DNA of 43,553 bases from Escherichia phage EP-B-K_E2, in the sequence record OR992644.1; one strand, written 5' to 3'. A program made the position numbers and the translations under genes. The notes under the pieces were generated by a model. It searched no databases. It saw nothing but the letters and a program-made list of their open reading frames with translations, and was not told the origin of the DNA. Of this stretch, positions 4,136 to 35,169 are shown one piece after another (position 1 is the stretch's first letter; each line of letters starts with the position of its first letter).

Positions 4136-6316
4136 TTACTTAGCATAGCGCTTCATCTCCGCACCTTCCGCTACAAGAGGGAACCCCTCTGCCCACTCTG
4201 GTAATTCGCACATCAACCGTTCAAGCTCTGCGACATTGTATTCCGGTAAATCTGGCGTCTCGCAGATAATCTCATCGTGAACATGAAGCACAATTGGGTA
4301 GCCGTTTGCTTCGACGTTAAGCAGGGCATTAGCCAGCAAATCACGGCACAGCGCCTGAGTGCAGTTTTCCACCAGTTTACCGGAGTAGGTATACTGGAAG
4401 CCCCACTGCCTGGTTAACTGGTTTTCGCCCTGGTACTTGATGCGCACGTTAGTAGACACCTTCCCGTCTTCGTCTGTCTCTTTTGATACACTTAAACCAA
4501 CGCCCGGGTAAGACATAACGCGGCCCGACGGCAACGTCATGCGCAACCACCAGCCCGCGACTTTGTTGCCGTTGGTGTCTGTTTCTACGTTACGCGAAAA
4601 CTTAACGCCCCGCGGCCCTGCGGTGAACTCTTTACCTGGGTTGCGGATAGCCGCCATAGCTGCATCTTCAATATCTCGCCAGAAAGCTACTGTTTCCGGG
4701 TGAGACTCGCGCCACATGCGCTTGATAGCGTCACAGGTACGCCACACTTTCTTATCAAGAATATATGATGGTCGGTCATCCTTTTCACCTGGACGTGGTG
4801 GTCGCTTGGCTTCCTGAATACGCGCCCACTCATATCCACGTGCGGTAGCAGCCCAGATGTGGTCGGGGAAAGTCCCATCCATTGTTTTTGCCATATCAAC
4901 CAGGTCAAGGCCAAGGTTCTTGGCGAACTGTACGAATGCGCCGACGCCGCCCGCATAGCCAAGCCCAAGTTCGCAGGCCTTACCAATCTGGCGCAAATCT
5001 TTACGTTCTTTCTTAATGTAATCTGGGTCCATGCCGAACATCTTACCTGCGGTTACGCAGTAAATATCCAGTCCGGCGCGGAACGTATCTAGCGCGGTTT
5101 CTTCGCCTGCCAGCCACGCTAAACCACGGCCTTCGACGTTTGAGTAATCGGCGACGACAAACTTATGCCCCACTTCCGGTATGATGCAGCTACGTACCGT
5201 CGATGCCGTTAGCTTGGCTACATCAAAACGGCGGTGTGCCCGGCCTTTAAGTAACGCTGAAATGCCTTTATCCAATTCATCATCGTGATAGTACCCGCGC
5301 GCCAGGTTCTGCGGCTGGAAGCCTTTACCTGCAAACCGTAACGTACGCTTGGCCCCACCGTACTGGATGCAACCACGGCGTCGGTCGTCAGACGAGCGGC
5401 CCAACAGCAGCGGGTTATATTTCGTTGACGCGGTGGACGCGGCCCCGAGGCGCATTTCGATAATTGTGCGTGCGTCGTCCGGTAAATCATCGTCCGCCAG
5501 CAGGTCGTTAAGCGTCGACTTCTGTGCGTTGTGTATGCGGTGTGCAGGGGAGAGTTCACGAAGAATCGGCAGAAAGTCCTTACCAGTAAGCGAGCCGCCG
5601 TATTTGCGTTGGGCTTCCTCCTGTAACTGCGCTTTGTGTTTCTCCACGGCTTCAATAGCGGCTTCCGCCAGTGCAACGTCAACCTTAAACCCGCGGTCGT
5701 TGATTAACTGGTCCAGTTCCAGTACACGGTCTTCGAACTCAGAGTTACCCCAACGCGGCAGCTTATGGAAGACTTCACGCATCGCAGTGATGTCGCTCAC
5801 GGCGTACTTGATGAACAGCGCCCACTCGTCCGGGTGTGTTTCTGCGGTGTAGCGGCGGATTTTGTAATTCTTCGGTGTCGGTTTAGAGAAACGCTGAATC
5901 AGCGCCTTGCCGCGTTTATCTTTTGCATTGTCAGCAGACACGCCGAGCACTTCACACAGCGCATCAAGTGAACCCGGCAGCGCGTGACGAAACGCCCAAA
6001 TCATCGTATCAATGGTGTTGCTTACGGGAATATCAAAGCCCCAGCAGTGTTTCATGATGGGCCTATCGAAAAGTCCACCGTTGTGCCACACCATCTTAAT
6101 GCGGCTGTTTGGCTTCACCAGACGGCGCAGAGCACGGTGCAAATCTCCTGGCATGTCGCTGCCGTCAGTGCAATCCCATACACGTACTGGCTCGTCGTCA
6201 AAAGAGTATGTACAGATAAGCACTTCGGTTGACGGATGCTCGGCGTAAGCGTAAGAACCGACTTTCTTCAAATCGGCTTCGGAGAATGTTTCAAAGTCTA
6301 AGAACAGGTAACTCAT
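4136..6316 (-). CDS. family A DNA polymerase with 3'-5' exonuclease domain
   Basis: Exo motif LFLDFETFS; pol motif A DYSNVEGR, motif B RQIGKACELGLGYAGG, motif C VLHVHDEI. Confidence 0.85.
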   Translation of the reverse strand: MSYLFLDFETFSEADLKKVGSYAYAEHPSTEVLICTYSFDDEPVRVWDCTDGSDMPGDLHRALRRLVKPNSRIKMVWHNGGLFDRPIMKHCWGFDIPVSNTIDTMIWAFRHALPGSLDALCEVLGVSADNAKDKRGKALIQRFSKPTPKNYKIRRYTAETHPDEWALFIKYAVSDITAMREVFHKLPRWGNSEFEDRVLELDQLINDRGFKVDVALAEAAIEAVEKHKAQLQEEAQRKYGGSLTGKDFLPILRELSPAHRIHNAQKSTLNDLLADDDLPDDARTIIEMRLGAASTASTKYNPLLLGRSSDDRRRGCIQYGGAKRTLRFAGKGFQPQNLARGYYHDDELDKGISALLKGRAHRRFDVAKLTASTVRSCIIPEVGHKFVVADYSNVEGRGLAWLAGEETALDTFRAGLDIYCVTAGKMFGMDPDYIKKERKDLRQIGKACELGLGYAGGVGAFVQFAKNLGLDLVDMAKTMDGTFPDHIWAATARGYEWARIQEAKRPPRPGEKDDRPSYILDKKVWRTCDAIKRMWRESHPETVAFWRDIEDAAMAAIRNPGKEFTAGPRGVKFSRNVETDTNGNKVAGWWLRMTLPSGRVMSYPGVGLSVSKETDEDGKVSTNVRIKYQGENQLTRQWGFQYTYSGKLVENCTQALCRDLLANALLNVEANGYPIVLHVHDEIICETPDLPEYNVAELERLMCELPEWAEGFPLVAEGAEMKRYAK

Positions 6317-6375
6317 TATTTTCGACCCTTAGTAAAAAGGCCCAATGAAGGGCCTTAGTTAAATTGATTCAGATA

Positions 6376-7002
6376 TTAGCGACGGCGACGTTCGCGGCGC
6401 GGTGATCCATCTTCTTCGTCGTCTTCCAGGTCATCGACGCTTGCGGCGACTTTAGAGCCACCAAACGCTTTACCTTCCCCGACGTACTTAATCGCCAGCA
6501 GGTTAACACCGAGAACTTTATATTTCTGGCTGAACCAGATTTCGACGCTTACGTTAGCAACGCAGCCACTGTAAACCTGTTCGCCTTCAATCTGTTCACC
6601 GTCTACGTTGAAGTCCTGCTCTACCTGGGTCTCACCTTTTTTAGAGGTTACAATCAGTGGCTGTTTCTGTGCCTTCGCTTTGAAGTAGAAGCCTTCCGGG
6701 AAGTCTTCAAACGGATTGTCGCGCTCAGCAATGTCTTTAATCGCGCATTTATCCATGTGCTTACCTTCGCCATAGTTGGACTTCATCCACTTCTCGGCGG
6801 CGGCTGCACCTAACGCTTCTTCAACTACAGCGTAAACATTGTCGTAGAGTGCATCGATTTGGGCATGGTCAGACGGCAGGATAATAGTTGCGCTGTACTG
6901 GCCTTTAGTGATTGAACCATCATCGTTTTCACGGTCTTTTTCGCGTTCAAATACGTTAACCCATGCAGTGTTTACTTTACGCAGATTTAATTTCAGTCCC
7001 AT
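6376..7002 (-). CDS. DUF2815-like protein (possible ssDNA-binding protein)
   Basis: 208 aa, acidic C-terminal region, position between polymerase and DUF2800-like nuclease. Confidence 0.45.
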   Translation of the reverse strand: MGLKLNLRKVNTAWVNVFEREKDRENDDGSITKGQYSATIILPSDHAQIDALYDNVYAVVEEALGAAAAEKWMKSNYGEGKHMDKCAIKDIAERDNPFEDFPEGFYFKAKAQKQPLIVTSKKGETQVEQDFNVDGEQIEGEQVYSGCVANVSVEIWFSQKYKVLGVNLLAIKYVGEGKAFGGSKVAASVDDLEDDEEDGSPRRERRRR

Positions 7003-7069
7003 CTTGATTTCTCGCTTTTCAGTTTATATTTCAAAGTTTACTCCGGGAACTGCCCGGCCAGTGATTAGA

Positions 7070-7098
7070 ACTATAATAGCTAACTATTCAGGTGTCAA
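7070..7098 (-). promoter_or_regulatory. sigma70-like promoter TTGACA-N17-TATAGT with AATAG-N4-CTATT dyad
   Basis: Read on minus strand upstream of 6376-7002. Confidence 0.6.
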
Positions 7099-7129
7099 CC
7101 CTTCCAGCCAGTTATTTTCTCAACTATAG

Positions 7130-7360
7130 TTAGGTATAGTTAGGCCACTTCAAATTACGAACCCACTCAACTTCTTTGGCGTACACCAAATCCTCTAGCT
7201 CTATTTTCCTGCACTTGAACGCGGTATACGCGAAAAACGGAAGAAGCATTATGACAAGCGGCAATATTAGCGCGTGATAAGTTAAAAACGCCACAAAACC
7301 GCCAATTACTCTGAACATTTTACGAATCATTCTAAATCCTCCTCTGTTACCTGATTCCAC
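7130..7360 (-). CDS. small membrane protein
   Basis: 76 aa with hydrophobic stretch VIGGFVAFLTYHALILPLVIMLLPFFAY. Confidence 0.45.
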   Translation of the reverse strand: MESGNRGGFRMIRKMFRVIGGFVAFLTYHALILPLVIMLLPFFAYTAFKCRKIELEDLVYAKEVEWVRNLKWPNYT

Positions 7361-8583
7361 TCAGGACGTTTGTCGTCTGCCGTTGCGACACATGGTGCGC
7401 CCGGCTTACGGGTAATGAAGTCTTTCAGTTCTTCTTCCGGTATGACTTTAACAGCTTCGGTAGGCGTCATGAGCACTTCTTTAGTCAGCTTGTCGCCGTA
7501 GAGTTCTGTTACTTTCTCCGCGTCTTTCCACGCACGATTACCCGGGCGGCCTTCAACCAGTTTGTACCCTGGCACTTTCTTACCGGAATGCAACACGGCC
7601 GCCATCGCTTTCTCGACCTTATCGATGTGCTGGCGCAACAACGGCAACTTCTCATACTCGGCGACGAGTTGCTCCGGCGTTAGTTCTAGTGCAAAGTCGT
7701 CTTCAAGTTCTTCCGCCAGTACAGAATTAACCGTCTTTGTACGCGCGGCGCATTGTTCAGAGAACCTACACCACTGACAACCATCTACCGACGGCTTAAA
7801 GTCCGACGCTTTCAGGTTCTTCTTACCGCGGAAGTACGCATCTAGCGCTAACAGCGCGCGTTTCTGTGCGAACTTGGCGAACAGTTCCAGCCCTTCAACC
7901 GGGATGTCCCACTCCGACGCACCGCCAGCGTACGGCTGGAAGATAACCAGACGAACGGTTGTTATGTTATAACGTCTCTTAAGTCTGCGATAAACACCGA
8001 GAGCGTAAAGCATAAGCTGCTTGTTTTCTTTCGCTTCGACACGATGCCGCCCTGTTTTAAGGTCGCCGATAATGAGCATGTGCTCGTCGGTGTTTGTCAG
8101 TTCCTGAACGGCAACAAGGTCTGCGGTTCCGAACGTCTCAACGCCTTCATACCCCGGATGCAATACCTCAGTAAGATTTACGCGCATCTCCAGCTTAGCG
8201 AAAGTAGCCACGTCGATAATCGGTTTGCAGTAGTCGGTGTACTTGCGCACCTGCTCAATCATGTCCGCCGTAATCAGTACAGCGCCTTTCATAGGACTGA
8301 TTAGCGCCTTAATCTGGCCTTTGCCCTCATCCAGAACATAAGCACCGACTTCACGCTCTAACGGTAGCGCAGTTCCGCGAATATAAGCGTTGAGATGGAC
8401 CTCAGCTATAGTGTGGCACGCGGTCCCTGTAACGGCAGCTTTACCAGATGTGTTAGGAATATCTTTTTCACAGGCCAGTGATGCAGCACAACTCAGCCAC
8501 TTTTTAGCGCCTGACGGTGACAGTAAGGCATGTACATCATTATTGCCGCCGCGTTCTTTAAGAATCATACCCTGTTCTCCCAC
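7327..8583 (-). CDS. DUF2800-like PD-(D/E)XK nuclease (RecB/Cas4-like, Cys cluster)
   Basis: N-terminal HALLSPSGAKKW signature, C-terminal CQWCRF...C cysteine cluster. Confidence 0.6.
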   Translation of the reverse strand: MGEQGMILKERGGNNDVHALLSPSGAKKWLSCAASLACEKDIPNTSGKAAVTGTACHTIAEVHLNAYIRGTALPLEREVGAYVLDEGKGQIKALISPMKGAVLITADMIEQVRKYTDYCKPIIDVATFAKLEMRVNLTEVLHPGYEGVETFGTADLVAVQELTNTDEHMLIIGDLKTGRHRVEAKENKQLMLYALGVYRRLKRRYNITTVRLVIFQPYAGGASEWDIPVEGLELFAKFAQKRALLALDAYFRGKKNLKASDFKPSVDGCQWCRFSEQCAARTKTVNSVLAEELEDDFALELTPEQLVAEYEKLPLLRQHIDKVEKAMAAVLHSGKKVPGYKLVEGRPGNRAWKDAEKVTELYGDKLTKEVLMTPTEAVKVIPEEELKDFITRKPGAPCVATADDKRPEWNQVTEEDLE

Positions 8584-12011: not shown

Positions 12012-12245
12012 TTATTCCAGGTCCTCTAAAGTAGCGGTCATTCCGCGAACTTCAGCAACGGCACTATATTTCCCGCCAACATTTTTCACGACACCGGATT
12101 TAACCAGCACCTTCAACGACCCTTCAATAACGGCGGAACTATAGTACTTAAAATAACTACGGCGCAAGTCCATAACGCTGCACGACCCTTTTTTACGTGT
12201 TAATGAGACGACCGCCGTAAATACGCGTGACTGGAACTCAGTCAT
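12012..12245 (-). CDS. hypothetical protein (possible winged-helix)
   Basis: 77-aa ORF coupled to 12242-12445. Confidence 0.4.
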   Translation of the reverse strand: MTEFQSRVFTAVVSLTRKKGSCSVMDLRRSYFKYYSSAVIEGSLKVLVKSGVVKNVGGKYSAVAEVRGMTATLEDLE

Positions 12246-12445
12246 TTCACGTTCTCCTTAATCCACGCTTCCACTTTCTCCCGGTCAAACGTACCTGGCT
12301 GCCGGCGGCCCATAATGCGAATACAACAATCCGGGAACTTCCCGCTCTTTAACCAGTTATTCAGCGTGCGACGAGTAACCCCGATACGCTCAGCTACTTC
12401 ATTCTGCGTCATTCTCAACCCCTCATTATCAGTTAACGGAACCAA
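12242..12445 (-). CDS. small HTH DNA-binding protein (AlpA/excisionase-like fold)
   Basis: MTQNEVAERIGVTRRTLNNWLKSGKFP HTH; first gene of minus-strand arm. Confidence 0.6.
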   Translation of the reverse strand: MVPLTDNEGLRMTQNEVAERIGVTRRTLNNWLKSGKFPDCCIRIMGRRQPGTFDREKVEAWIKENVK

Positions 12446-12843: not shown

Positions 12844-12872
12844 TTGCACACCCCAACATAATAGGTTACTAT
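12844..12872 (+). promoter_or_regulatory. sigma70-like promoter TTGCAC-N17-TACTAT with AATAG-N4-CTATT dyad
   Basis: Nearly identical 35-bp element to 25844-25872 and 35034-35062 (opposite strand). Confidence 0.6.
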
Positions 12873-14054: not shown

Positions 14055-14083
14055 TTGCACACTGGGATAGAATAGACTACTAT
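14055..14083 (+). promoter_or_regulatory. sigma70-like promoter TTGCAC-N17-TACTAT with AATAG-N4-CTATT dyad
   Basis: Upstream of 14114 gene. Confidence 0.6.
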
Positions 14084-14113: not shown

Positions 14114-14332
14114 ATGTTCCTGGAATGCAAATCCTACGATGGTTACTGGGCGCTGGCTAAAAACGACCTGTACCACATCAAAGAAGACAGCGACGAGAGT
14201 CGATGCTACATAATAGACGACAACGGCACTGAACTTGACGTCTATTACACCGGGTATGGTCGATGGGCGTTATCCGCAGACGATGCCTTTGTGTTTGAAG
14301 AATATAACGGGGAGGAACCGGATGATGAGTAA
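14114..14332 (+). CDS. hypothetical acidic protein
   Basis: 72 aa, SD aggagag upstream. Confidence 0.5.
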   Translation: MFLECKSYDGYWALAKNDLYHIKEDSDESRCYIIDDNGTELDVYYTGYGRWALSADDAFVFEEYNGEEPDDE

Positions 14333-15035
14333 CAAAAACGAAGTATTCGAGTACCTGATTAACCAACTACGGCAGCAGTTACAAGTCGTAGATGTAATGG
14401 GTGAAATCGAACGGTGGAGTATTGACCGTAGTATTGCCGGACGAGGTAACTATACCGACGAGGAAAACGCCATAATTGATGCTTACATCGGCCTGGAGCA
14501 CAACCCGTACAAGCAACAGTGCGAAGACCTGGCGCGTGAGGTGCAGTCACTTAAGAATCAGTTACGTGATGCGTCGGCGCAGATTAAGGAGTTGCAGGAA
14601 GACAACATTGAGAAATCCAGGCACATATCACATCTGGCGGGGCAATCGTCGGCGTATTGCAATGACGCTTTTCGCCTTCAAGCGCAAGTTGATGACCTGG
14701 TAAAACGGCTGGCTAAGGCCACTGGTGACGAGTCTGCGCAGATTAAGGAGTTGACGCTCGCGCTAGATAGTTTAGATAACGAGGTTATGTGTCTTCGTTC
14801 GATCGTTGACCTGGACCCTAAAGGCGCGATTGGGTACATCCGGCGGGCAAATAGTGCAATGACTGACACCATGCGCCGCCAATACCTTAGCAAAGCACTT
14901 GAGGAACTCGGATGTAAGGATTCGCCAGAACAATCCGGTTGCCATAAAGATGACGTGCAGGAATGCAAGCACGATTGGTACTTTTACGATAAAGGTGCTT
15001 CGATGATGTGCAAGAAATGTGGGTTAAAGAAATGA
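14322..15035 (+). CDS. hypothetical coiled-coil protein with C-terminal Cys cluster
   Basis: Start moved to ATG with SD ggagg; internal repeat SAQIKEL x2; C-terminal CxxxxxxC...CxxC. Confidence 0.5.
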   Translation: MMSNKNEVFEYLINQLRQQLQVVDVMGEIERWSIDRSIAGRGNYTDEENAIIDAYIGLEHNPYKQQCEDLAREVQSLKNQLRDASAQIKELQEDNIEKSRHISHLAGQSSAYCNDAFRLQAQVDDLVKRLAKATGDESAQIKELTLALDSLDNEVMCLRSIVDLDPKGAIGYIRRANSAMTDTMRRQYLSKALEELGCKDSPEQSGCHKDDVQECKHDWYFYDKGASMMCKKCGLKK

Positions 15036-25496: not shown

Positions 25497-25500
25497 TAGA

Positions 25501-25529
25501 AGGCCCTGAAAGGGCCTTATTTTTTTTTA
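25501..25529 (+). terminator. rho-independent terminator
   Basis: aggccct-gaa-agggcct followed by 9 T. Confidence 0.7.
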
Positions 25530-25808
25530 TACAAATACGAATCCATCGCTGGTAGAGGTGTATCGGGTGGCGCCGTTTTTCGTTTCAGGCCAACAGATAT
25601 ATGAGCGACCATGATACTCTATCCACCAAAGTTCTACATCGGCACCTTCATTAGGTCGCGTCAACCACCCGTGGTGCAGCCAATACTTGCGCCCTATTTT
25701 AAATATGCCTTCTTCGCCTGAAGGCCTGCAACAGGCGACGCACTCTACTTGAATACCATCAACCTGCACACATGTCATATGTAAATTACTGTTTGAGTAT
25801 TTAGCCAT
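25527..25808 (-). CDS. reverse-oriented orphan gene, Cys-rich hypothetical protein
   Basis: 93-aa ORF with own promoter (25844-25872) and SD aaggaa; opposite to flanking structural genes. Confidence 0.55.
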   Translation of the reverse strand: MAKYSNSNLHMTCVQVDGIQVECVACCRPSGEEGIFKIGRKYWLHHGWLTRPNEGADVELWWIEYHGRSYICWPETKNGATRYTSTSDGFVFV

Positions 25809-25843
25809 TTCTAAATTCCTTATCTCTCGTTTCGATGTAATGA

Positions 25844-25872
25844 ATAGTACCCTATTATGCTGGTGTGTGCAA
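25844..25872 (-). promoter_or_regulatory. sigma70-like promoter TTGCAC-N17-TACTAT with dyad (minus strand)
   Basis: Near-identical to 12844-12872 element. Confidence 0.6.
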
Positions 25873-33195: not shown

Positions 33196-33226
33196 ACTAA
33201 GGCCCCTTTCGGGGCCTTTTTTTTCT
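33196..33226. terminator. bidirectional rho-independent terminator
   Basis: aaggcccc-tttc-ggggcctt with A-run upstream and 8 T downstream. Confidence 0.7.
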
Positions 33227-33456
33227 TACTCGTCAATATTGCTTCGATACTCCCGTAACTTCTCCAGACTTTCAATTGCTTCCGCTAAGTCTGTTCCGGT
33301 GTCCTTGTGCCCGCGCAAGCCCATACACAATAGCTTCTTCAATGCATGCTGTAACGCCGGGTCGCGGATGTCGAAGGCGCGTAGCACATCATAAACGTCT
33401 ACTGTCATAGTGCTGCCGTGAGTGTTTGTCATGGTGCGGTTGTATTTATTTGTCAC
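33226..33456 (-). CDS. DUF3310-like small protein
   Basis: DVYDVLRAF...ALKKLLCMGLRGHKD...LAEAIESLEKL resembles DUF3310 signature. Confidence 0.45.
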   Translation of the reverse strand: MTNKYNRTMTNTHGSTMTVDVYDVLRAFDIRDPALQHALKKLLCMGLRGHKDTGTDLAEAIESLEKLREYRSNIDE

Positions 33457-33642
33457 TGTTAACTCTCTTAAATCGGGCTATGCCTGACTCGTTAATGTTG
33501 CCTATTTCAAAGAAGCTGCGATATTTAGGCTAATACATTCTTACGTCGCCATTCTCTAGGGTTATTCCTTCATATACAGCACCTACTTAGAACCCATTTT
33601 TCTCTGCGTACGGACTCACATCGGTGCATTCATACATGTCTC

Positions 33643-34773
33643 TCATCCCAGCATCTCCGGTGAAATAGTTAAACGTGCAACCTCGCCATATTCGGCGCTA
33701 TAAGTAATTACATTTGCACTACGGCCCGACATCCACCCTCCGCGGGAAGCATATGCATCTTTCGCCGCCAGGGTTCGGTGCTGCTCGACAATCATGTTAC
33801 GGCTTTCTACGATTTTCTGATGGTGCAGGTGGCCTACGTGGGCGTAGCTGTACTCGCTTTCGCCAAACGCTTTGCGGAACTTAGCTATCATAATTGGTTC
33901 GACCACCTCAAACCGACATTTATGGCCATGTGTAAAGAACAGAGTCGTTTTGCCGTGTTGTACCATCTTGTACACATCCGGCGACGTATCGACGAACACA
34001 CGAGGCTCATTGTCGTACAGCGTACTGAACATCTCAGCCAGCCAAATCATTCCGCTTTCGTCGTGGTTCCCTTGCACTATAAGCAAACGAACATTTCTAT
34101 GCTTAACAAGTGCCATATCTACAACACGGCGTACCATACGAATCATGTAGCGGACCAGTTTCTGATAGCGCGTGTCAGCGTCAAGGACATGACCACTAGT
34201 TGGCGTAACGGCATCCAGGCTATCGAAGTGCGCGAAGTCGCCTAGCAGGTTAATAACTCCAGTTCCTGCATCCGGTGCTTTCTGAAACGCCGCGTCGAAC
34301 CAGCGGGAGAACAGGTCTTCCGCAATCTTCATGTCCCAGTCGTCGCCGCTCTCGTCGGCCCAGGCCAGCATACCGAGATGAAAATCAGATACCGTGTAAA
34401 GATTGAGTAGCTTGTCGTCGCGTTTGGCGCGTGCTGCTTTAACAGGGGCGACTGGCGTAATCTCTGATTTCATTCCTTCGATTACGGCTTTCATCAACTC
34501 GACCTGACGTTCGGCATCGGTGTCTGTCTTAACCCATTGCAACTTAGTGTTGCCGAACTCGTCCACCAGTGACGACGTTCCTTTAATCTTGTAGCCGTCT
34601 GGTACTAGATGGCTAACGTCACGCCCGTGGCCTACGCCTTTTTTCGCCAGCTTCGCTTTACGGATACGAATAACGCGGTCTGAGATGCCGTATTTACGGG
34701 CGATATCTATATTCTTCATCCCGGCGTTCAATTCTTCCTGTAACTGTTCGTCGGTTATTTTCTTCTGGGCCAT
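33643..34773 (-). CDS. HTH domain fused to calcineurin-like metallophosphoesterase
   Basis: N-terminal HTH IDIARKYGISDRVIRIRKAKL; motifs SDFHLG, GDFAHFD, VQGNHDE, THGH, VGHLHH; start set to ATG with SD gaggaag. Confidence 0.7.
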   Translation of the reverse strand: MAQKKITDEQLQEELNAGMKNIDIARKYGISDRVIRIRKAKLAKKGVGHGRDVSHLVPDGYKIKGTSSLVDEFGNTKLQWVKTDTDAERQVELMKAVIEGMKSEITPVAPVKAARAKRDDKLLNLYTVSDFHLGMLAWADESGDDWDMKIAEDLFSRWFDAAFQKAPDAGTGVINLLGDFAHFDSLDAVTPTSGHVLDADTRYQKLVRYMIRMVRRVVDMALVKHRNVRLLIVQGNHDESGMIWLAEMFSTLYDNEPRVFVDTSPDVYKMVQHGKTTLFFTHGHKCRFEVVEPIMIAKFRKAFGESEYSYAHVGHLHHQKIVESRNMIVEQHRTLAAKDAYASRGGWMSGRSANVITYSAEYGEVARLTISPEMLG

Positions 34774-34811
34774 GCTTACTTCCTCGTGTTTAGGATTTGT
34801 CTTATAGTAGC

Positions 34812-35003
34812 CTACTTCTCTTTCACGTTCGAGTTGCAAGCCCAGATTAAAATAAATACCCACGGCAGCAGAACCCAGCCAAGAAACAGATTAGCCATGA
34901 ATATCGCCAACTTCGCTTTATGGTTACGGAAGTACGCAACCAGGAAAGGCGCGAAATAAGCGAGCAGTGCAAACAGAATTAAGGAAACTGGTAAACTGGA
35001 CAT
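34812..35003 (-). CDS. small membrane protein (alternative start 35018)
   Basis: Two hydrophobic helices; SD aagggg 6 nt before second ATG; directly downstream of promoter 35034-35062. Confidence 0.5.
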   Translation of the reverse strand: MSSLPVSLILFALLAYFAPFLVAYFRNHKAKLAIFMANLFLGWVLLPWVFILIWACNSNVKEK

Positions 35004-35033
35004 TTTAAACCCCTTCATTGTTGGTGTAAGTGA

Positions 35034-35062
35034 ATAGTACCCTATTATATTGGGGTACGCAA
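35034..35062 (-). promoter_or_regulatory. sigma70-like promoter TTGCGT-N17-TACTAT with dyad (minus strand)
   Basis: Near-identical to 12844-12872 and 25844-25872 elements. Confidence 0.6.
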
Positions 35063-35169
35063 GTAATGTGATAGAATAATTTTGCGCCTAGTGTCGCACA
35101 CGAAAAGCGGGTGGTTCCCGTCTGGCGCATTTCCCTTAACCTGTAACCTCTTAACCAAAGGATTAAAGA

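What the first reader, a model, noticed from the sequence alone, without database searches (positions are those of the whole stretch)
33196..35062. Reverse-oriented accessory cassette in the tail module: membrane protein + HTH-metallophosphoesterase + DUF3310-like protein
Between the major tail gene and the tail assembly chaperone sits a three-gene minus-strand unit with its own promoter (35034-35062, TTGCGT-N17-TACTAT) and a bidirectional terminator (33196-33226). Its central gene fuses an N-terminal HTH to a complete calcineurin-like metallophosphoesterase motif set (DxH, GDxxD, GNHD/E, H, GHxH read from the translation). Upstream is a 63-aa two-helix membrane protein and downstream a DUF3310-like protein. 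The promoter is of the same class as the first early plus-strand promoter, so the cassette is probably expressed early, independently of the surrounding late genes. This is the layout expected of a moron carrying a host-directed function such as superinfection exclusion, nucleotide-signal degradation (anti-defence) or a phosphatase acting on host proteins. I cannot assign the function from sequence alone.
Basis: partly seen in the sequence, partly recalled or inferred. Interest (0 to 1): 0.75.

Follow-up and report, generated by a model that had tools for sequence, protein, structure and literature searches.

The report
Early immunity-plus-nuclease cassette in tail module
A backwards-facing gene block inside the tail genes of this Kagunavirus phage really exists, but it is a conserved, already-annotated feature of the whole phage subfamily: a T4-Imm-type superinfection-immunity membrane protein plus a DNA-binding metallophosphoesterase of the widespread, biochemically untested phage T1 gp16 family, most likely a DNA nuclease.

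Summary
The window is a Kagunavirus (Guernseyvirinae), about 90% identical in DNA to K1G, ZCEC5 and DUEC01. The minus-strand unit between the tail-tube gene and the tail assembly chaperone is real.

**What was confirmed**
- The 63-aa membrane protein is a Pfam Imm_superinfect member.
- The 376-aa protein has a winged-HTH N-terminus and a complete, invariant metallophosphoesterase site (AlphaFold pLDDT 92; best solved-structure match Mre11).
- The promoter is one of four copies of a 29-nt motif in the window (0.13 expected). Its hexamers are invariant in the Kagunavirus and Jerseyvirus relatives compared.

**What was not confirmed**
- "DUF3310-like" for the 76-aa protein: no Pfam hit, and hhalign probability 7%.
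- A fourth ORF between the phosphoesterase and the 76-aa gene is a pseudogene with two in-frame stops.

**Is it a moron?** Imm and the phosphoesterase were found in every Guernseyvirinae relative inspected. Only the 3' end of the unit varies.

**The phosphoesterase**
- It is the phage T1 gp16 family, found in 2,039 phage records, elsewhere inside DNA-replication and nucleotide-metabolism modules.
- It is often followed directly by a PNKP-type phosphatase and a dNMP kinase.
- Its GDFxH motif matches Mre11 and Pseudomonas nuclease MPE.
- The most likely function is an early DNA-directed nuclease or phosphodiesterase. This is untested.

Interest is modest.

The parts
35034..35062 (-). Promoter-like 29-mer TTGCGTACCCCAATATAATAGGGTACTAT (-35 TTGCGT, 17-nt spacer, -10 TACTAT) driving the cassette
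   Evidence: One of 4 copies of TTGC-N19-TAYTAT in the window against 0.13 expected. Both hexamers are invariant in Kagunavirus and Jerseyvirus relatives. Promoter function is inferred, not shown.
34812..35003 (-). imm: 63-aa two-TM superinfection immunity protein (alternative start at 35018 gives 68 aa)
   Evidence: Pfam PF14373 Imm_superinfect, E 9.3e-13, 48.3 bits against cut-off 27.9. phrog_1039 'immunity to superinfection', E 4.7e-23. Two hydrophobic segments. A Shine-Dalgarno GAAGGGG lies 6 nt before the ATG at 35003.
33643..34773 (-). 376-aa winged-HTH metallophosphoesterase, phage T1 gp16 family (wHTH about aa 1-85, helix 87-104, MPE core 119-376)
   Evidence: phrog_704, E 1.3e-166. 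45% identical to T1 gp16. The metal-ligand motifs are invariant, with H315 conserved in at least 90%. AlphaFold pLDDT 92.4. Foldseek top matches are Mre11, Rv0805 and PolD DP1. dN/dS is about 0.03.
33446..33646 (-). Pseudogene of a 66-codon ORF that is intact in DUEC01 and ORH_001; in-frame TAA at 33587-33589 and TAG at 33530-33532
   Evidence: Alignment with relatives and translation. The intact ORF has no family match.
33226..33456 (-). 76-aa conserved small protein (GTG start), beta-hairpin plus three helices, function unknown; not DUF3310 by any test run
   Evidence: phrog_2452 C-terminal region, E 8.6e-37. Found in 773 phage records. dN/dS 0.02-0.03. AlphaFold pLDDT 87 with no solved-structure match. 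No Pfam hit. hhalign against DUF3310 gives 7%.
33199..33218 (.). Shared G+C-rich hairpin terminator (AAGGCCCC-loop-GGGGCCTT) ending both the tail-tube gene and the cassette
   Evidence: Found on both strands. Conserved at the cassette end in relatives. The T-run is strong on the + strand only.
35081..35145 (+). Adjacent element, not part of the cassette proper: int-alpA-like structured RNA between the cassette promoter and the tail assembly chaperone gene
   Evidence: Rfam RF02996, 33.1 bits (gathering score 35.8) in the window and 34.2-36.6 in relatives. Compensatory changes between Kagunavirus and Jerseyvirus copies.

Best explanation
The region is an early, self-contained leftward transcription unit that is a fixed feature of Guernseyvirinae phages.

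**Expression (inferred).** Host RNA polymerase starts at a conserved sigma-70-type promoter, one of four copies of the phage's 29-nt promoter motif. It transcribes imm, then the phosphoesterase, then (in this phage) a dead 66-codon ORF and a 76-aa gene. It stops at the hairpin shared with the tail-tube gene.

**Imm (by analogy only).** Imm is a two-helix inner-membrane protein of the T4 Imm family. It most likely protects the infected cell against DNA entry from superinfecting phages.

**The 376-aa protein.** It belongs to the phage T1 gp16 family: a winged helix-turn-helix DNA-binding head fused to a binuclear (probably Mn2+) metallophosphoesterase. Its catalytic site is of the Mre11/SbcD/PdeM nuclease type (DxHLG, GDFxH, GNHD, H, GHxH). 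I propose that it is a DNA-directed phosphodiesterase or nuclease that works without a Rad50-like partner. It would act early on DNA, either breaking down host DNA to feed nucleotide salvage or processing DNA ends and single-stranded regions during phage replication and recombination.

**Link to neighbouring genes.** In about half of Kagunaviruses, and in Webervirus and Bonnellvirus, the next genes are a PNKP-type 3'-phosphatase plus either a dNMP kinase or a dATP/dGTP pyrophosphohydrolase-like protein. That would fit clean-up of 3'-phosphate ends and recycling of the released nucleotides.

**Shown:** gene structure, family memberships, fold, invariant site, conservation, gene neighbourhoods, promoter-motif enrichment.

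**Inferred:** early timing, nuclease activity, substrate, Imm function.
For: **Cassette anatomy and promoter or terminator:**

**Imm:** Pfam above threshold and a PHROG match; two TM segments.

**MPE fold and site**
- pLDDT 92.
- Foldseek against the PDB: top hit Mre11 (4o43, E 3.4e-8), also MjMre11 and PolD DP1 exonuclease.
- Invariant ligands.
- In a profile search against PDB sequences, the only MPE-domain matches are DNA nucleases: P. putida 'Nuclease MPE' 6nvo/6nvp and T. maritima Mre11/SbcD. Their E-values (0.14-0.7) are not significant.
- In those weak alignments the family's motif II, LGDFLH, is the same as that of P. putida MPE.
- The aligned histidines, His81 and His113 of P. putida MPE, are essential for DNA cleavage but not for bis-pNPP hydrolysis (PMC7826289). 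They correspond to the invariant H182 and H237 here.

**wHTH:**

**Context**
- T1 gp16 lies between dam and the lysis genes, downstream of helicase and VRR-NUC-type genes.
- Webervirus Shelby: MPE, then PNKP phosphatase, then dNMP kinase.
- Bonnellvirus altidsur: pol, exonuclease, endonuclease VII, MPE, a small ORF, PNKP phosphatase, dGTP_diPhyd.
- Kagunavirus: 8 of 14 IMG/VR loci and 54 GenBank records carry the PNKP phosphatase overlapping the MPE stop codon.

**Selection:** strong purifying selection.

**Precedent:** a mycobacteriophage MPE expressed early damages host DNA and silences defence genes (PMC12287305). This is a superfamily-level analogy only.
Against: - No member of the T1 gp16 family has been assayed, as far as the searchable literature shows.
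- Pfam Metallophos and Metallophos_2 scores fall just below the gathering thresholds.
- Sequence matches to nucleases are individually non-significant (E 0.14-0.7).
- The fold search equally returns the cyclic-nucleotide phosphodiesterase Rv0805 in second place.
- Kagunaviruses already encode an exonuclease, an endonuclease VII and a resolvase in their replication module, so an additional nuclease is not obviously needed.
- The PNKP phosphatase and dNMP kinase neighbours are absent from this window and from most of the 37 homologue clusters examined.
- No transcript data exist for the promoter.
- Imm function has been shown only for T4.
Confidence: 0.45

Rival explanations
1. The phosphoesterase is a nucleic-acid end-healing enzyme (2',3'-cyclic phosphodiesterase or 3'-phosphatase). 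It would work with PNKP-type phosphatase and kinase partners to repair tRNA or DNA cut by host defence nucleases, by analogy with the metallophosphoesterase domain of bacterial Pnkp (my recollection of that enzyme's domain layout, not checked here).
For: The gene is repeatedly placed directly next to HAD_PNKP phosphatase genes in three phage lineages. The HAD protein matches the PNKP phosphatase domain PF25109, E 8.7e-20.
Against: The P-loop partner is of the dNMP-kinase type (phrog_139), not a polynucleotide kinase. No ligase was seen in any neighbourhood. The partners are absent from this window. Motif II is GDFxH, not the GDxVDRG that I recall for lambda-phosphatase/Pnkp-type enzymes.
Confidence: 0.15
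2. The phosphoesterase is an anti-defence enzyme that destroys cyclic nucleotide or oligonucleotide immune signals (CBASS, Pycsar, Thoeris or type III CRISPR). It would be expressed early together with Imm as a host-takeover pair.
For: The cyclic-nucleotide phosphodiesterase Rv0805 is the second-best structural match. The promoter is of the early class. The gene is co-transcribed with a superinfection-immunity gene.
Against: A DNA-binding wHTH domain is conserved across the family. The motif II histidine is of the nuclease type. Elsewhere the gene sits in replication and nucleotide modules. There is no PADLOC match. BASEL Kagunaviruses show no unusual resistance to the defence systems tested (bioRxiv 10.1101/2024.09.12.612763).
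Confidence: 0.12
3. The phosphoesterase is a Ser/Thr/Tyr protein phosphatase like lambda NinI, acting on host or phage phosphoproteins. Some Jerseyvirus genomes annotate it this way.
For: The S134 genome record calls it a putative serine/threonine phosphatase with similarity to lambda phosphatase. In one lambdoid-like contig the homologue sits directly upstream of an antiterminator Q gene, which I recall is where ninI lies in lambda.
Against: The PPP-type signatures that I recall (GDxVDRG, GNHE) are absent: the family has GDFxH and GNHD. Lambda phosphatase is not among the 50 best structural matches. No PPP family appears in the Pfam or NCBIfam hits.
Confidence: 0.05
4. The cassette has a tail-assembly or virion role, which would explain its fixed position inside the tail module.
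For: Its position between the tail-tube and chaperone genes is fixed in all Guernseyvirinae relatives inspected.
Against: It has opposite orientation, its own early-class promoter and its own terminator. The same phosphoesterase family lies in non-structural modules in T1, Webervirus, Dhillonvirus and Bonnellvirus. None of the products has a structural-protein family match.
Confidence: 0.02

Closest known systems
Phage T1 gp16 / PHROG 704 ('DNA repair exonuclease', 'phosphoesterase' in GenBank annotations)
   Same: Full-length homologue: 45% identity over 376 aa, with the same wHTH plus MPE architecture and the same invariant residues. The family is present in 2,039 phage records and 4,740 clusters at 50% identity.
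   Different: In T1, Webervirus, Dhillonvirus and Bonnellvirus the gene lies in the replication, nucleotide or lysis-proximal region. In Guernseyvirinae it is paired with imm and inverted inside the tail module. I found no biochemical or genetic characterisation of any member.
Mre11/SbcD and Pseudomonas putida nuclease MPE (PdeM)
   Same: Binuclear metallophosphoesterase fold. DxH(L/I)G motif I. Motif II with a histidine three residues after the bridging Asp (GDFLH in both PdeM and this family). GNHD general-acid histidine.
   Different: No Rad50/SbcC partner gene in or next to the cassette. No Lhr/ligase operon. TIGR04123 scores 9.6 bits against a cut-off of 150. There is an extra N-terminal wHTH and a linker helix. 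Sequence identity is 10-14%.
T4 Imm (Pfam PF14373 Imm_superinfect)
   Same: Small two-TM protein that passes the family's curated threshold, encoded by a virulent phage.
   Different: A siphovirus of a different family. No experimental evidence exists for which incoming phages, if any, are excluded. Two allelic forms that differ in the first TM helix occur among Kagunaviruses.
Mycobacteriophage A10ZJ24 Gp48 metallophosphoesterase (PMC12287305)
   Same: An early-expressed phage MPE with all five motifs. It has phosphodiesterase activity, damages host genomic DNA and thereby counters defence. This is the kind of role proposed here.
   Different: Homology beyond the superfamily level was not tested here. 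Different host phylum and genomic context.
Moron (lambdoid-phage sense: autonomous promoter-gene-terminator unit inserted in a late operon)
   Same: Own promoter and terminator, opposite strand, located between late genes.
   Different: Found in all relatives inspected rather than in a few. Composition is not deviant. Only the genes downstream of the phosphoesterase are exchanged between relatives.

Membership tests
Calcineurin-like metallophosphoesterase superfamily | Five motifs carrying the metal ligands (DxH, GDxx[DH], GNH[DE], H, GHxH) | tested here: met
   D130, H132, G178, D179, N236, H237, H282, G314 and H317 are invariant in 51 sequences that are 31-50% identical to the query. H315 is conserved in at least 90%, and is invariant in the 9-sequence alignment.
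Calcineurin-like metallophosphoesterase superfamily | Beta-sandwich phosphoesterase fold | tested here: met
   AlphaFold model with pLDDT 92.4. 110 PDB matches at E<=1e-3; all 50 matches listed are metallophosphoesterase-fold proteins.
Calcineurin-like metallophosphoesterase superfamily | Pfam Metallophos or Metallophos_2 score above the gathering threshold | tested here: not met
   25.4 bits against 27 (PF12850) and 19.7 against 21.5 (PF00149). This is a near miss: some close homologues carry a precomputed PF12850 hit.
Calcineurin-like metallophosphoesterase superfamily | Metal-dependent phosphoester hydrolysis | not testable with these tools
   Needs an enzyme assay.
Mre11/SbcD nucleases | Nuclease-type motif II histidine (GDxxH) | tested here: met
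   H182 is invariant. It aligns with GDLLH of T. maritima Mre11 and GDFLH of P. putida MPE (alignments at non-significant E-values).
Mre11/SbcD nucleases | Adjacent Rad50/SbcC-type ATPase partner | tested here: not met
   There is no such gene in the cassette or its flanks. The only hint in the window is a weak SbcC-like match (E 7e-4) in an unrelated ORF at 14235-15035.
Mre11/SbcD nucleases | C-terminal capping domain and homodimer | tested here: inconclusive
   The protein ends about 60 residues after motif V, with strands that look like part of the core. Oligomeric state was not modelled.
PdeM / ligase-associated nuclease MPE (TIGR04123) | Family HMM above cut-off, and the Lhr-MPE-Exo-ligase operon | tested here: not met
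   9.6 bits against a cut-off of 150. No helicase or ligase neighbours.
Imm_superinfect (PF14373, T4 Imm family) | Family HMM above the gathering threshold | tested here: met
   48.3 bits against 27.9, E 9.3e-13. phrog_1039, E 4.7e-23.
Imm_superinfect (PF14373, T4 Imm family) | Small protein with two transmembrane helices | tested here: met
   Mean Kyte-Doolittle hydropathy (15-residue windows) above 1.7 over about residues 1-24 and 31-57, with the basic loop RNHKAK between them.
Imm_superinfect (PF14373, T4 Imm family) | Blocks DNA entry of superinfecting phage | not testable with these tools
   Needs expression and challenge experiments.
DUF3310 (PF11753) | Match to the family HMM or profile | tested here: not met
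   No hit for the 76-aa protein or for 17 other alignment members at E<=10. jackhmmer seeded with two true DUF3310 proteins (validated) does not retrieve it. hhalign gives probability 7% over 31 columns.
Moron | Own promoter and terminator within a late operon | tested here: met
   These are sequence evidence only.
Moron | Sporadic presence among close relatives, or deviant composition | tested here: not met
   The cassette is present in 417 records. The phosphoesterase is in 373 Salmonella records against 372 Salmonella records matching the genome half. GC is 0.46-0.53 against 0.50-0.55 in the flanks.
int-alpA RNA (Rfam RF02996), adjacent element | Covariance-model score at or above the gathering score | tested here: inconclusive
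   The window scores 33.1 against 35.8. Relatives score 36.6, 36.6, 35.8 and 34.2. The structure is supported by compensatory changes.

The most novel reading that the evidence does not exclude
The wHTH-metallophosphoesterase of the T1 gp16 family could be a stand-alone, Rad50-independent DNA nuclease. Thousands of virulent phages (Drexlerviridae, Dhillonvirus, Guernseyvirinae, some Autographiviridae, and Vibrio, Rhodobacter and Campylobacter phages) would deploy it early to cripple host DNA, and with it host defence expression, while feeding nucleotide salvage. In Guernseyvirinae it would have been captured, together with imm, into an early 'host takeover' island inside the tail operon. Rightward tail expression would then restart through an int-alpA-type RNA leader.
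Probability: 0.15. Interest if true: 0.6.

Novelty: new member of a known kind. Interest (0 to 1): 0.3.

Why it matters
For this window, little changes. The cassette is an annotated, conserved feature of a well-sampled phage subfamily, and its genes fall into known families.

The wider point is that the phosphoesterase belongs to one of the larger phage enzyme families with no experimental function: 2,039 GenBank phage records, including the classic phage T1 and many therapeutic Klebsiella, Salmonella and E. coli phages. The evidence here narrows the hypothesis to a DNA-directed, Mre11/PdeM-type nuclease. That evidence is the invariant nuclease-type histidine, the DNA-binding head, and the recurrent coupling to a PNKP-type phosphatase and nucleotide enzymes.

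The hypothesis can be tested directly in available model phages (T1, and BASEL Bas74 and its relatives).

Tried and rejected
- **Locus search:** The search for related loci with the 51-sequence alignment failed because no stretch was conserved enough. It worked with a 9-sequence alignment.
- **Sequence searches with the phosphoesterase:** single-sequence phmmer against the PDB gave only a weak FixJ HTH match. NCBIfam gave nothing significant. PADLOC gave no match for any cassette protein. BFVD returned only unnamed or generically named phage homologues.
- **The 76-aa protein:** Pfam on 18 members, a PDB profile search, AlphaFold plus Foldseek and hhalign or jackhmmer against DUF3310 were all negative. 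I considered whether it is a detached C-terminal domain of a PNKP phosphatase or dNMP-kinase fusion, because it matches the C-terminal third of phrog_2452. I dropped this because the kinases belong to phrog_139 and show no similarity to it.
- **Literature:** searches for functional, essentiality or escape-mutant data on this family or on Guernseyvirinae found nothing usable. Phage seszw, used in the genome-reduction study, is a Skatevirus and not a relative.
- **Neighbour census:** a crude census of neighbouring genes over 36 distant homologue clusters showed no universal partner.
- **Alternative promoter:** I considered ATCACA-N17-TATAAT (35044-35072, the scanner's best hit).
Full report
**Identity of the window**

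The window is a Kagunavirus (subfamily Guernseyvirinae). Its right half matches Escherichia phages ZCEC5, fEg-Eco19, ST20, K1G, DUEC01 and Bas74 at about 90% nucleotide identity. The 2.3-kb region of the finding matches 417 phage records, mostly Salmonella Jerseyviruses and Escherichia Kagunaviruses. Its phosphoesterase is 100% identical in protein to the one in the partial record for Escherichia phage EP-M-A.

A fully annotated relative, Bas74, shows the genome plan:
- a T7-like replication module on one strand: helicase-primase, exonuclease, gp2.5-like SSB, DNA polymerase, endonuclease VII, resolvase, methyltransferase and helicase;
- small early genes, lysis genes and structural genes on the other strand;
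- two short reversed islands inside the structural genes.

**Checking the observation**

The ORFs are as described.
- The membrane protein most plausibly starts at the ATG at 35003, giving 63 aa. That start has a GAAGGGG Shine-Dalgarno six bases upstream, and it corresponds to the start used in relatives.
- The protein has two hydrophobic segments separated by RNHKAK.
- The central gene is 376 aa, starting from the ATG at 34773, which is preceded by GAGGAAG.
- The hairpin at 33199-33218 is detected on both strands. It has a long T-run for the tail-tube transcript and a weaker one for the cassette transcript.

- The pattern TTGC-N19-TAYTAT occurs four times in the window against 0.13 expected, and none of 100 shuffles reached 4.
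- The four copies share an extended 29-nt consensus. Each lies upstream of an ORF in the matching orientation: 12844 + and 14055 + at the head of the plus-strand early region, 25844 - and 35034 -.
- In an alignment of five Kagunavirus and two Jerseyvirus intergenic regions, both hexamers are invariant or conservatively changed (TTGCAT, TATTAT) while the spacer diverges.

So the statement that the promoter is of the same class as the early plus-strand promoter holds. That it works as a promoter, and works early, remains an inference.

**Two corrections to the observation**

First, the stretch between the phosphoesterase gene and the 76-aa gene is not empty. It aligns with a 66-codon ORF that is intact in DUEC01 and ORH_001. 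In this window it carries two single-base nonsense changes: CAA to TAA at 33587-33589 and TCG to TAG at 33530-33532.

Second, 'DUF3310-like' could not be substantiated.
- Neither the 76-aa protein nor any of 17 other alignment members hits PF11753, even at E<=10.
- jackhmmer seeded with genuine DUF3310 proteins from related loci (validated) does not recover it.
- hhalign gives 7% probability over 31 columns.
- The AlphaFold model (pLDDT 87; a beta-hairpin plus three helices) has no significant match among solved structures.
- One GenBank record (Henuyfy11N) labels the gene DUF3310, which may be where that idea comes from.

The gene itself is real. Its dN/dS is 0.02-0.03, and homologues occur in 773 phage records.

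**The membrane protein**

It passes the curated threshold of Pfam Imm_superinfect (48.3 bits against 27.9; E 9.3e-13) and matches phrog_1039, 'immunity to superinfection'. Many relatives annotate it this way.

Two allelic forms that differ in the first helix occur among Kagunaviruses. dN/dS between the two types is about 0.2.

**The phosphoesterase**

*Family size.* It matches phrog_704 over its full length (E 1.3e-166). It has 4,740 homologous clusters at 50% identity in the 1.8-billion-protein library, most of them 370-420 aa long.

*Active site.*
- In 51 homologues that are 31-50% identical to the query, D130, H132, G178, D179, N236, H237, H282, G314 and H317 are invariant.
- H315, H182 and D184 are conserved in at least 90% of them, and are invariant in the 9-sequence alignment.

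*Structure.* The AlphaFold model is confident (pLDDT 92.4). It shows three helices (8-44) and a beta-hairpin (61-85), then a long helix, then the phosphoesterase core (119-376).

*N-terminal domain.* A profile of the N-terminal 115 residues matches HTH and winged-HTH regulators in the PDB over residues 7-50: AF2008, LrpA, SsrB and FixJ, at E 0.002-0.08. This agrees with weak GerE and FixJ hits and with NCBI's own name for homologues, 'winged helix-turn-helix domain-containing protein'.

*Fold search.* Foldseek against the PDB ranks T. maritima Mre11 first (E 3.4e-8), followed by Rv0805, PolD DP1 exonuclease, M. jannaschii Mre11, purple acid phosphatases, YfcE and GpdQ. The fold is therefore certain, but the subfamily is not decided by fold alone.

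*Which kind of phosphoesterase.*
- With a profile of the 51 sequences, the only phosphoesterase-domain matches among PDB sequences are DNA nucleases: P. putida 'Nuclease MPE' (6nvo/6nvp) and T. maritima Mre11/SbcD.
- Their E-values are not significant (0.14-0.7).
- The alignments place the family's DlHlG on ADVHIG and SDWHLG. They place its LGDFLH on LGDFLH of P. putida MPE and GDLLH of Mre11.
- Counting residues in those alignments, the aligned histidines are His81 and His113 of P. putida MPE.
- Ghosh et al. showed that these two histidines are essential for DNA cleavage but dispensable for bis-pNPP hydrolysis (PMC7826289).
- They correspond to H182 and H237 here.
- From my own knowledge of the superfamily, protein phosphatases carry GDxVDRG and GNHE, and class III cyclic-nucleotide phosphodiesterases lack the motif II histidine. 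That is an inference, not a test.

**Genomic context of the family**

By tblastn the family is present in 2,039 phage records: Escherichia 559, Klebsiella 468, Salmonella 373, Vibrio 254, and others.
- **Phage T1.** The homologue is gp16 (45% identical). It lies after the helicase, dam and small genes and before the lysis genes.
- **Webervirus Shelby.** The gene follows helicase, VRR-NUC and dam. It is followed directly by a PNKP-type HAD phosphatase and a dNMP kinase.
- **Bonnellvirus altidsur (a podovirus).** The order is DNA polymerase, exonuclease, endonuclease VII, phosphoesterase, a 74-aa ORF, PNKP-type phosphatase, and a dATP/dGTP-diphosphohydrolase-domain protein.
- **Dhillonvirus GeorgBuechner.** The gene lies after the lysis genes at the genome end.
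- **Distant loci.** Among 80 IMG/VR loci, which fall into 37 clusters at 75% identity, there is no universal partner. True DUF3310 genes, a PF18909 gene, DUF1064, an Rv2179c-like exoribonuclease and an antiterminator Q occur nearby in various lineages.

**Variation within Guernseyvirinae**

imm and the phosphoesterase are constant. What follows the phosphoesterase varies:
- nothing but the 76-aa gene, with overlapping stop and start codons (Henuyfy11N and Bas74);
- the 66-codon ORF (DUEC01 and ORH_001);
- an HNH endonuclease, plus an Ant/Rha-type protein after the 76-aa gene (Jerseyviruses S134 and wast);
- a PNKP-type phosphatase plus the 76-aa gene (K-01);
- a PNKP-type phosphatase plus a dNMP kinase, with no 76-aa gene (8 of 14 IMG/VR Kagunavirus/Jerseyvirus loci).

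54 GenBank records hold a phosphatase at least 80% identical to the K-01 one. In the annotated records listed, it overlaps the phosphoesterase gene.

The unit therefore has a fixed core and an exchangeable 3' slot. This window has the reduced version with a decayed slot gene.

**Is it a moron?**

It has the anatomy of one. It does not have the distribution or the composition of one:
- it is found in all relatives inspected;
- its GC content is like that of its flanks;
- its genes are under purifying selection: dN/dS is about 0.03 for the phosphoesterase and the 76-aa gene, and 0.02 for imm within an allele type.

**Most likely mechanism and rivals**

I commit to an early transcription unit with two functions. 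The first is Imm-type exclusion of superinfecting DNA. The second is a wHTH-tethered, Mre11/PdeM-type DNA phosphodiesterase or nuclease that acts in DNA metabolism, either in host-DNA breakdown and nucleotide salvage or in processing of single-stranded regions and ends.

The recurrent downstream PNKP-type 3'-phosphatase fits an enzyme that, like P. putida MPE, can leave 3'-phosphate ends (title of PMC7826289). The dNMP kinase and the NTP pyrophosphohydrolase-like partners fit nucleotide recycling.

A mycobacteriophage phosphoesterase with an early, host-DNA-damaging, counter-defence role is a functional precedent (PMC12287305).

Confidence is 0.45, because no member of the family has been assayed and the links to nucleases are motif-level. 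The rivals are end-healing (0.15), degradation of signalling nucleotides (0.12), protein phosphatase (0.05) and a structural role (0.02).

**Adjacent element worth recording**

Between the cassette promoter and the chaperone gene, on the plus strand, lies a highly conserved element at 35081-35145. It scores 33.1 bits against Rfam int-alpA RNA, whose gathering score is 35.8 (E 2e-4). In four relatives it scores 34.2-36.6 bits, which is at or above the gathering score in three of them.

An alignment of 19 distinct copies supports an outer stem and two hairpins. There are compensatory changes between Kagunavirus and Jerseyvirus copies: GUGU...ACAC against CGGU...ACCG, and GCGCC...GGCGC against GCGUC...GACGC.

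The element is preceded by a position-conserved TGnTA extended -10-like sequence (TGATAGAAT, 35069-35077). It is followed by three TAACC repeats just before the chaperone's ribosome-binding site.

Because the tail-tube terminator and the reversed cassette interrupt rightward transcription, this element may be the leader of a restarted tail operon. The phage also encodes an excisionase/AlpA-like HTH_17 protein at 12245-12412 on the minus strand. Any link between that protein and the RNA element is speculation.

**Verdict**

The object is an ordinary, conserved and already-annotated feature of Guernseyvirinae.

What remains open is the phosphoesterase family. It is large, it includes T1 gp16, and I found no experimental study of it in the searchable literature. 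The analysis here makes a DNA-nuclease hypothesis specific enough to test.

Noticed in passing
window 35081-35145 (+), with flanks 35069-35077 and 35137-35156: A conserved structured element matches Rfam int-alpA RNA: 33.1 bits in the window (gathering score 35.8) and 34.2-36.6 in relatives. Compensatory base changes between Kagunavirus and Jerseyvirus copies support it. It is preceded by a conserved extended -10-like TGATAGAAT and followed by three TAACC repeats just upstream of the tail assembly chaperone start. It may be the leader of a restarted tail operon.
   Followed up: partly
window 33446-33646 (-): A 66-codon ORF that is intact in relatives (DUEC01, ORH_001) carries two in-frame stops here: TAA at 33587-33589 and TAG at 33530-33532. 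Otherwise its protein sequence is nearly unchanged, differing at one or two residues from DUEC01. It looks like a recent pseudogene in the variable slot downstream of the phosphoesterase.
   Followed up: yes
window 25500-25872 (-): There is a second reversed island inside the head module with the same design. It has a copy of the 29-nt promoter motif (25844-25872), a single 93-aa ORF (25527-25808) with no Pfam, PHROG or PADLOC match, and a G+C-rich hairpin with an A/T run directly after it.
   Followed up: partly
window 12844-12872 (+), 14055-14083 (+), 25844-25872 (-), 35034-35062 (-): There are four copies of an extended 29-nt promoter-like consensus, roughly TTGCACACCCCAAYATAATAGGGTACTAT, against 0.13 expected by chance. 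Each lies upstream of an ORF in the matching orientation.
   Followed up: partly
window 33199-33218 compared with L001, L003, L004: The stem of the shared terminator hairpin is identical in relatives, but the 4-nt loop is inverted. On the cassette strand it reads GAAA in the window and ORH_001, and TTTC in DUEC01, K-01 and Henuyfy11N. This coincides with the presence or absence of a small extra ORF next to it.
   Followed up: no
window 12245-12412 (-): A small HTH_17 (excisionase/MerR-like) protein, annotated 'excisionase and transcriptional regulator' in Bas74, is encoded in the early region of this virulent phage. It is of interest because int-alpA RNAs are named for lying near alpA-type genes.
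   Followed up: partly
L003 2090-2578 (K-01); L012 7128-8170; L006 5161-6230 (Shelby); L010 4306-5386 (altidsur): A PNKP-type HAD phosphatase, followed by a dNMP kinase or a dATP/dGTP-diphosphohydrolase-domain protein, sits directly downstream of the phosphoesterase homologue in three unrelated phage groups. The same holds in 8 of 14 IMG/VR Kagunavirus/Jerseyvirus loci, and 54 GenBank records carry the Kagunavirus-type phosphatase. This window lacks these genes.
   Followed up: yes
L036 and L037 (IMG/VR contigs), around 5600-7500: In a lambdoid-like contig the phosphoesterase homologue lies immediately upstream of an antiterminator Q gene, with a DUF3310 gene immediately before it. As I recall, this is the position that the NinI phosphatase occupies in lambda.
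   Followed up: no
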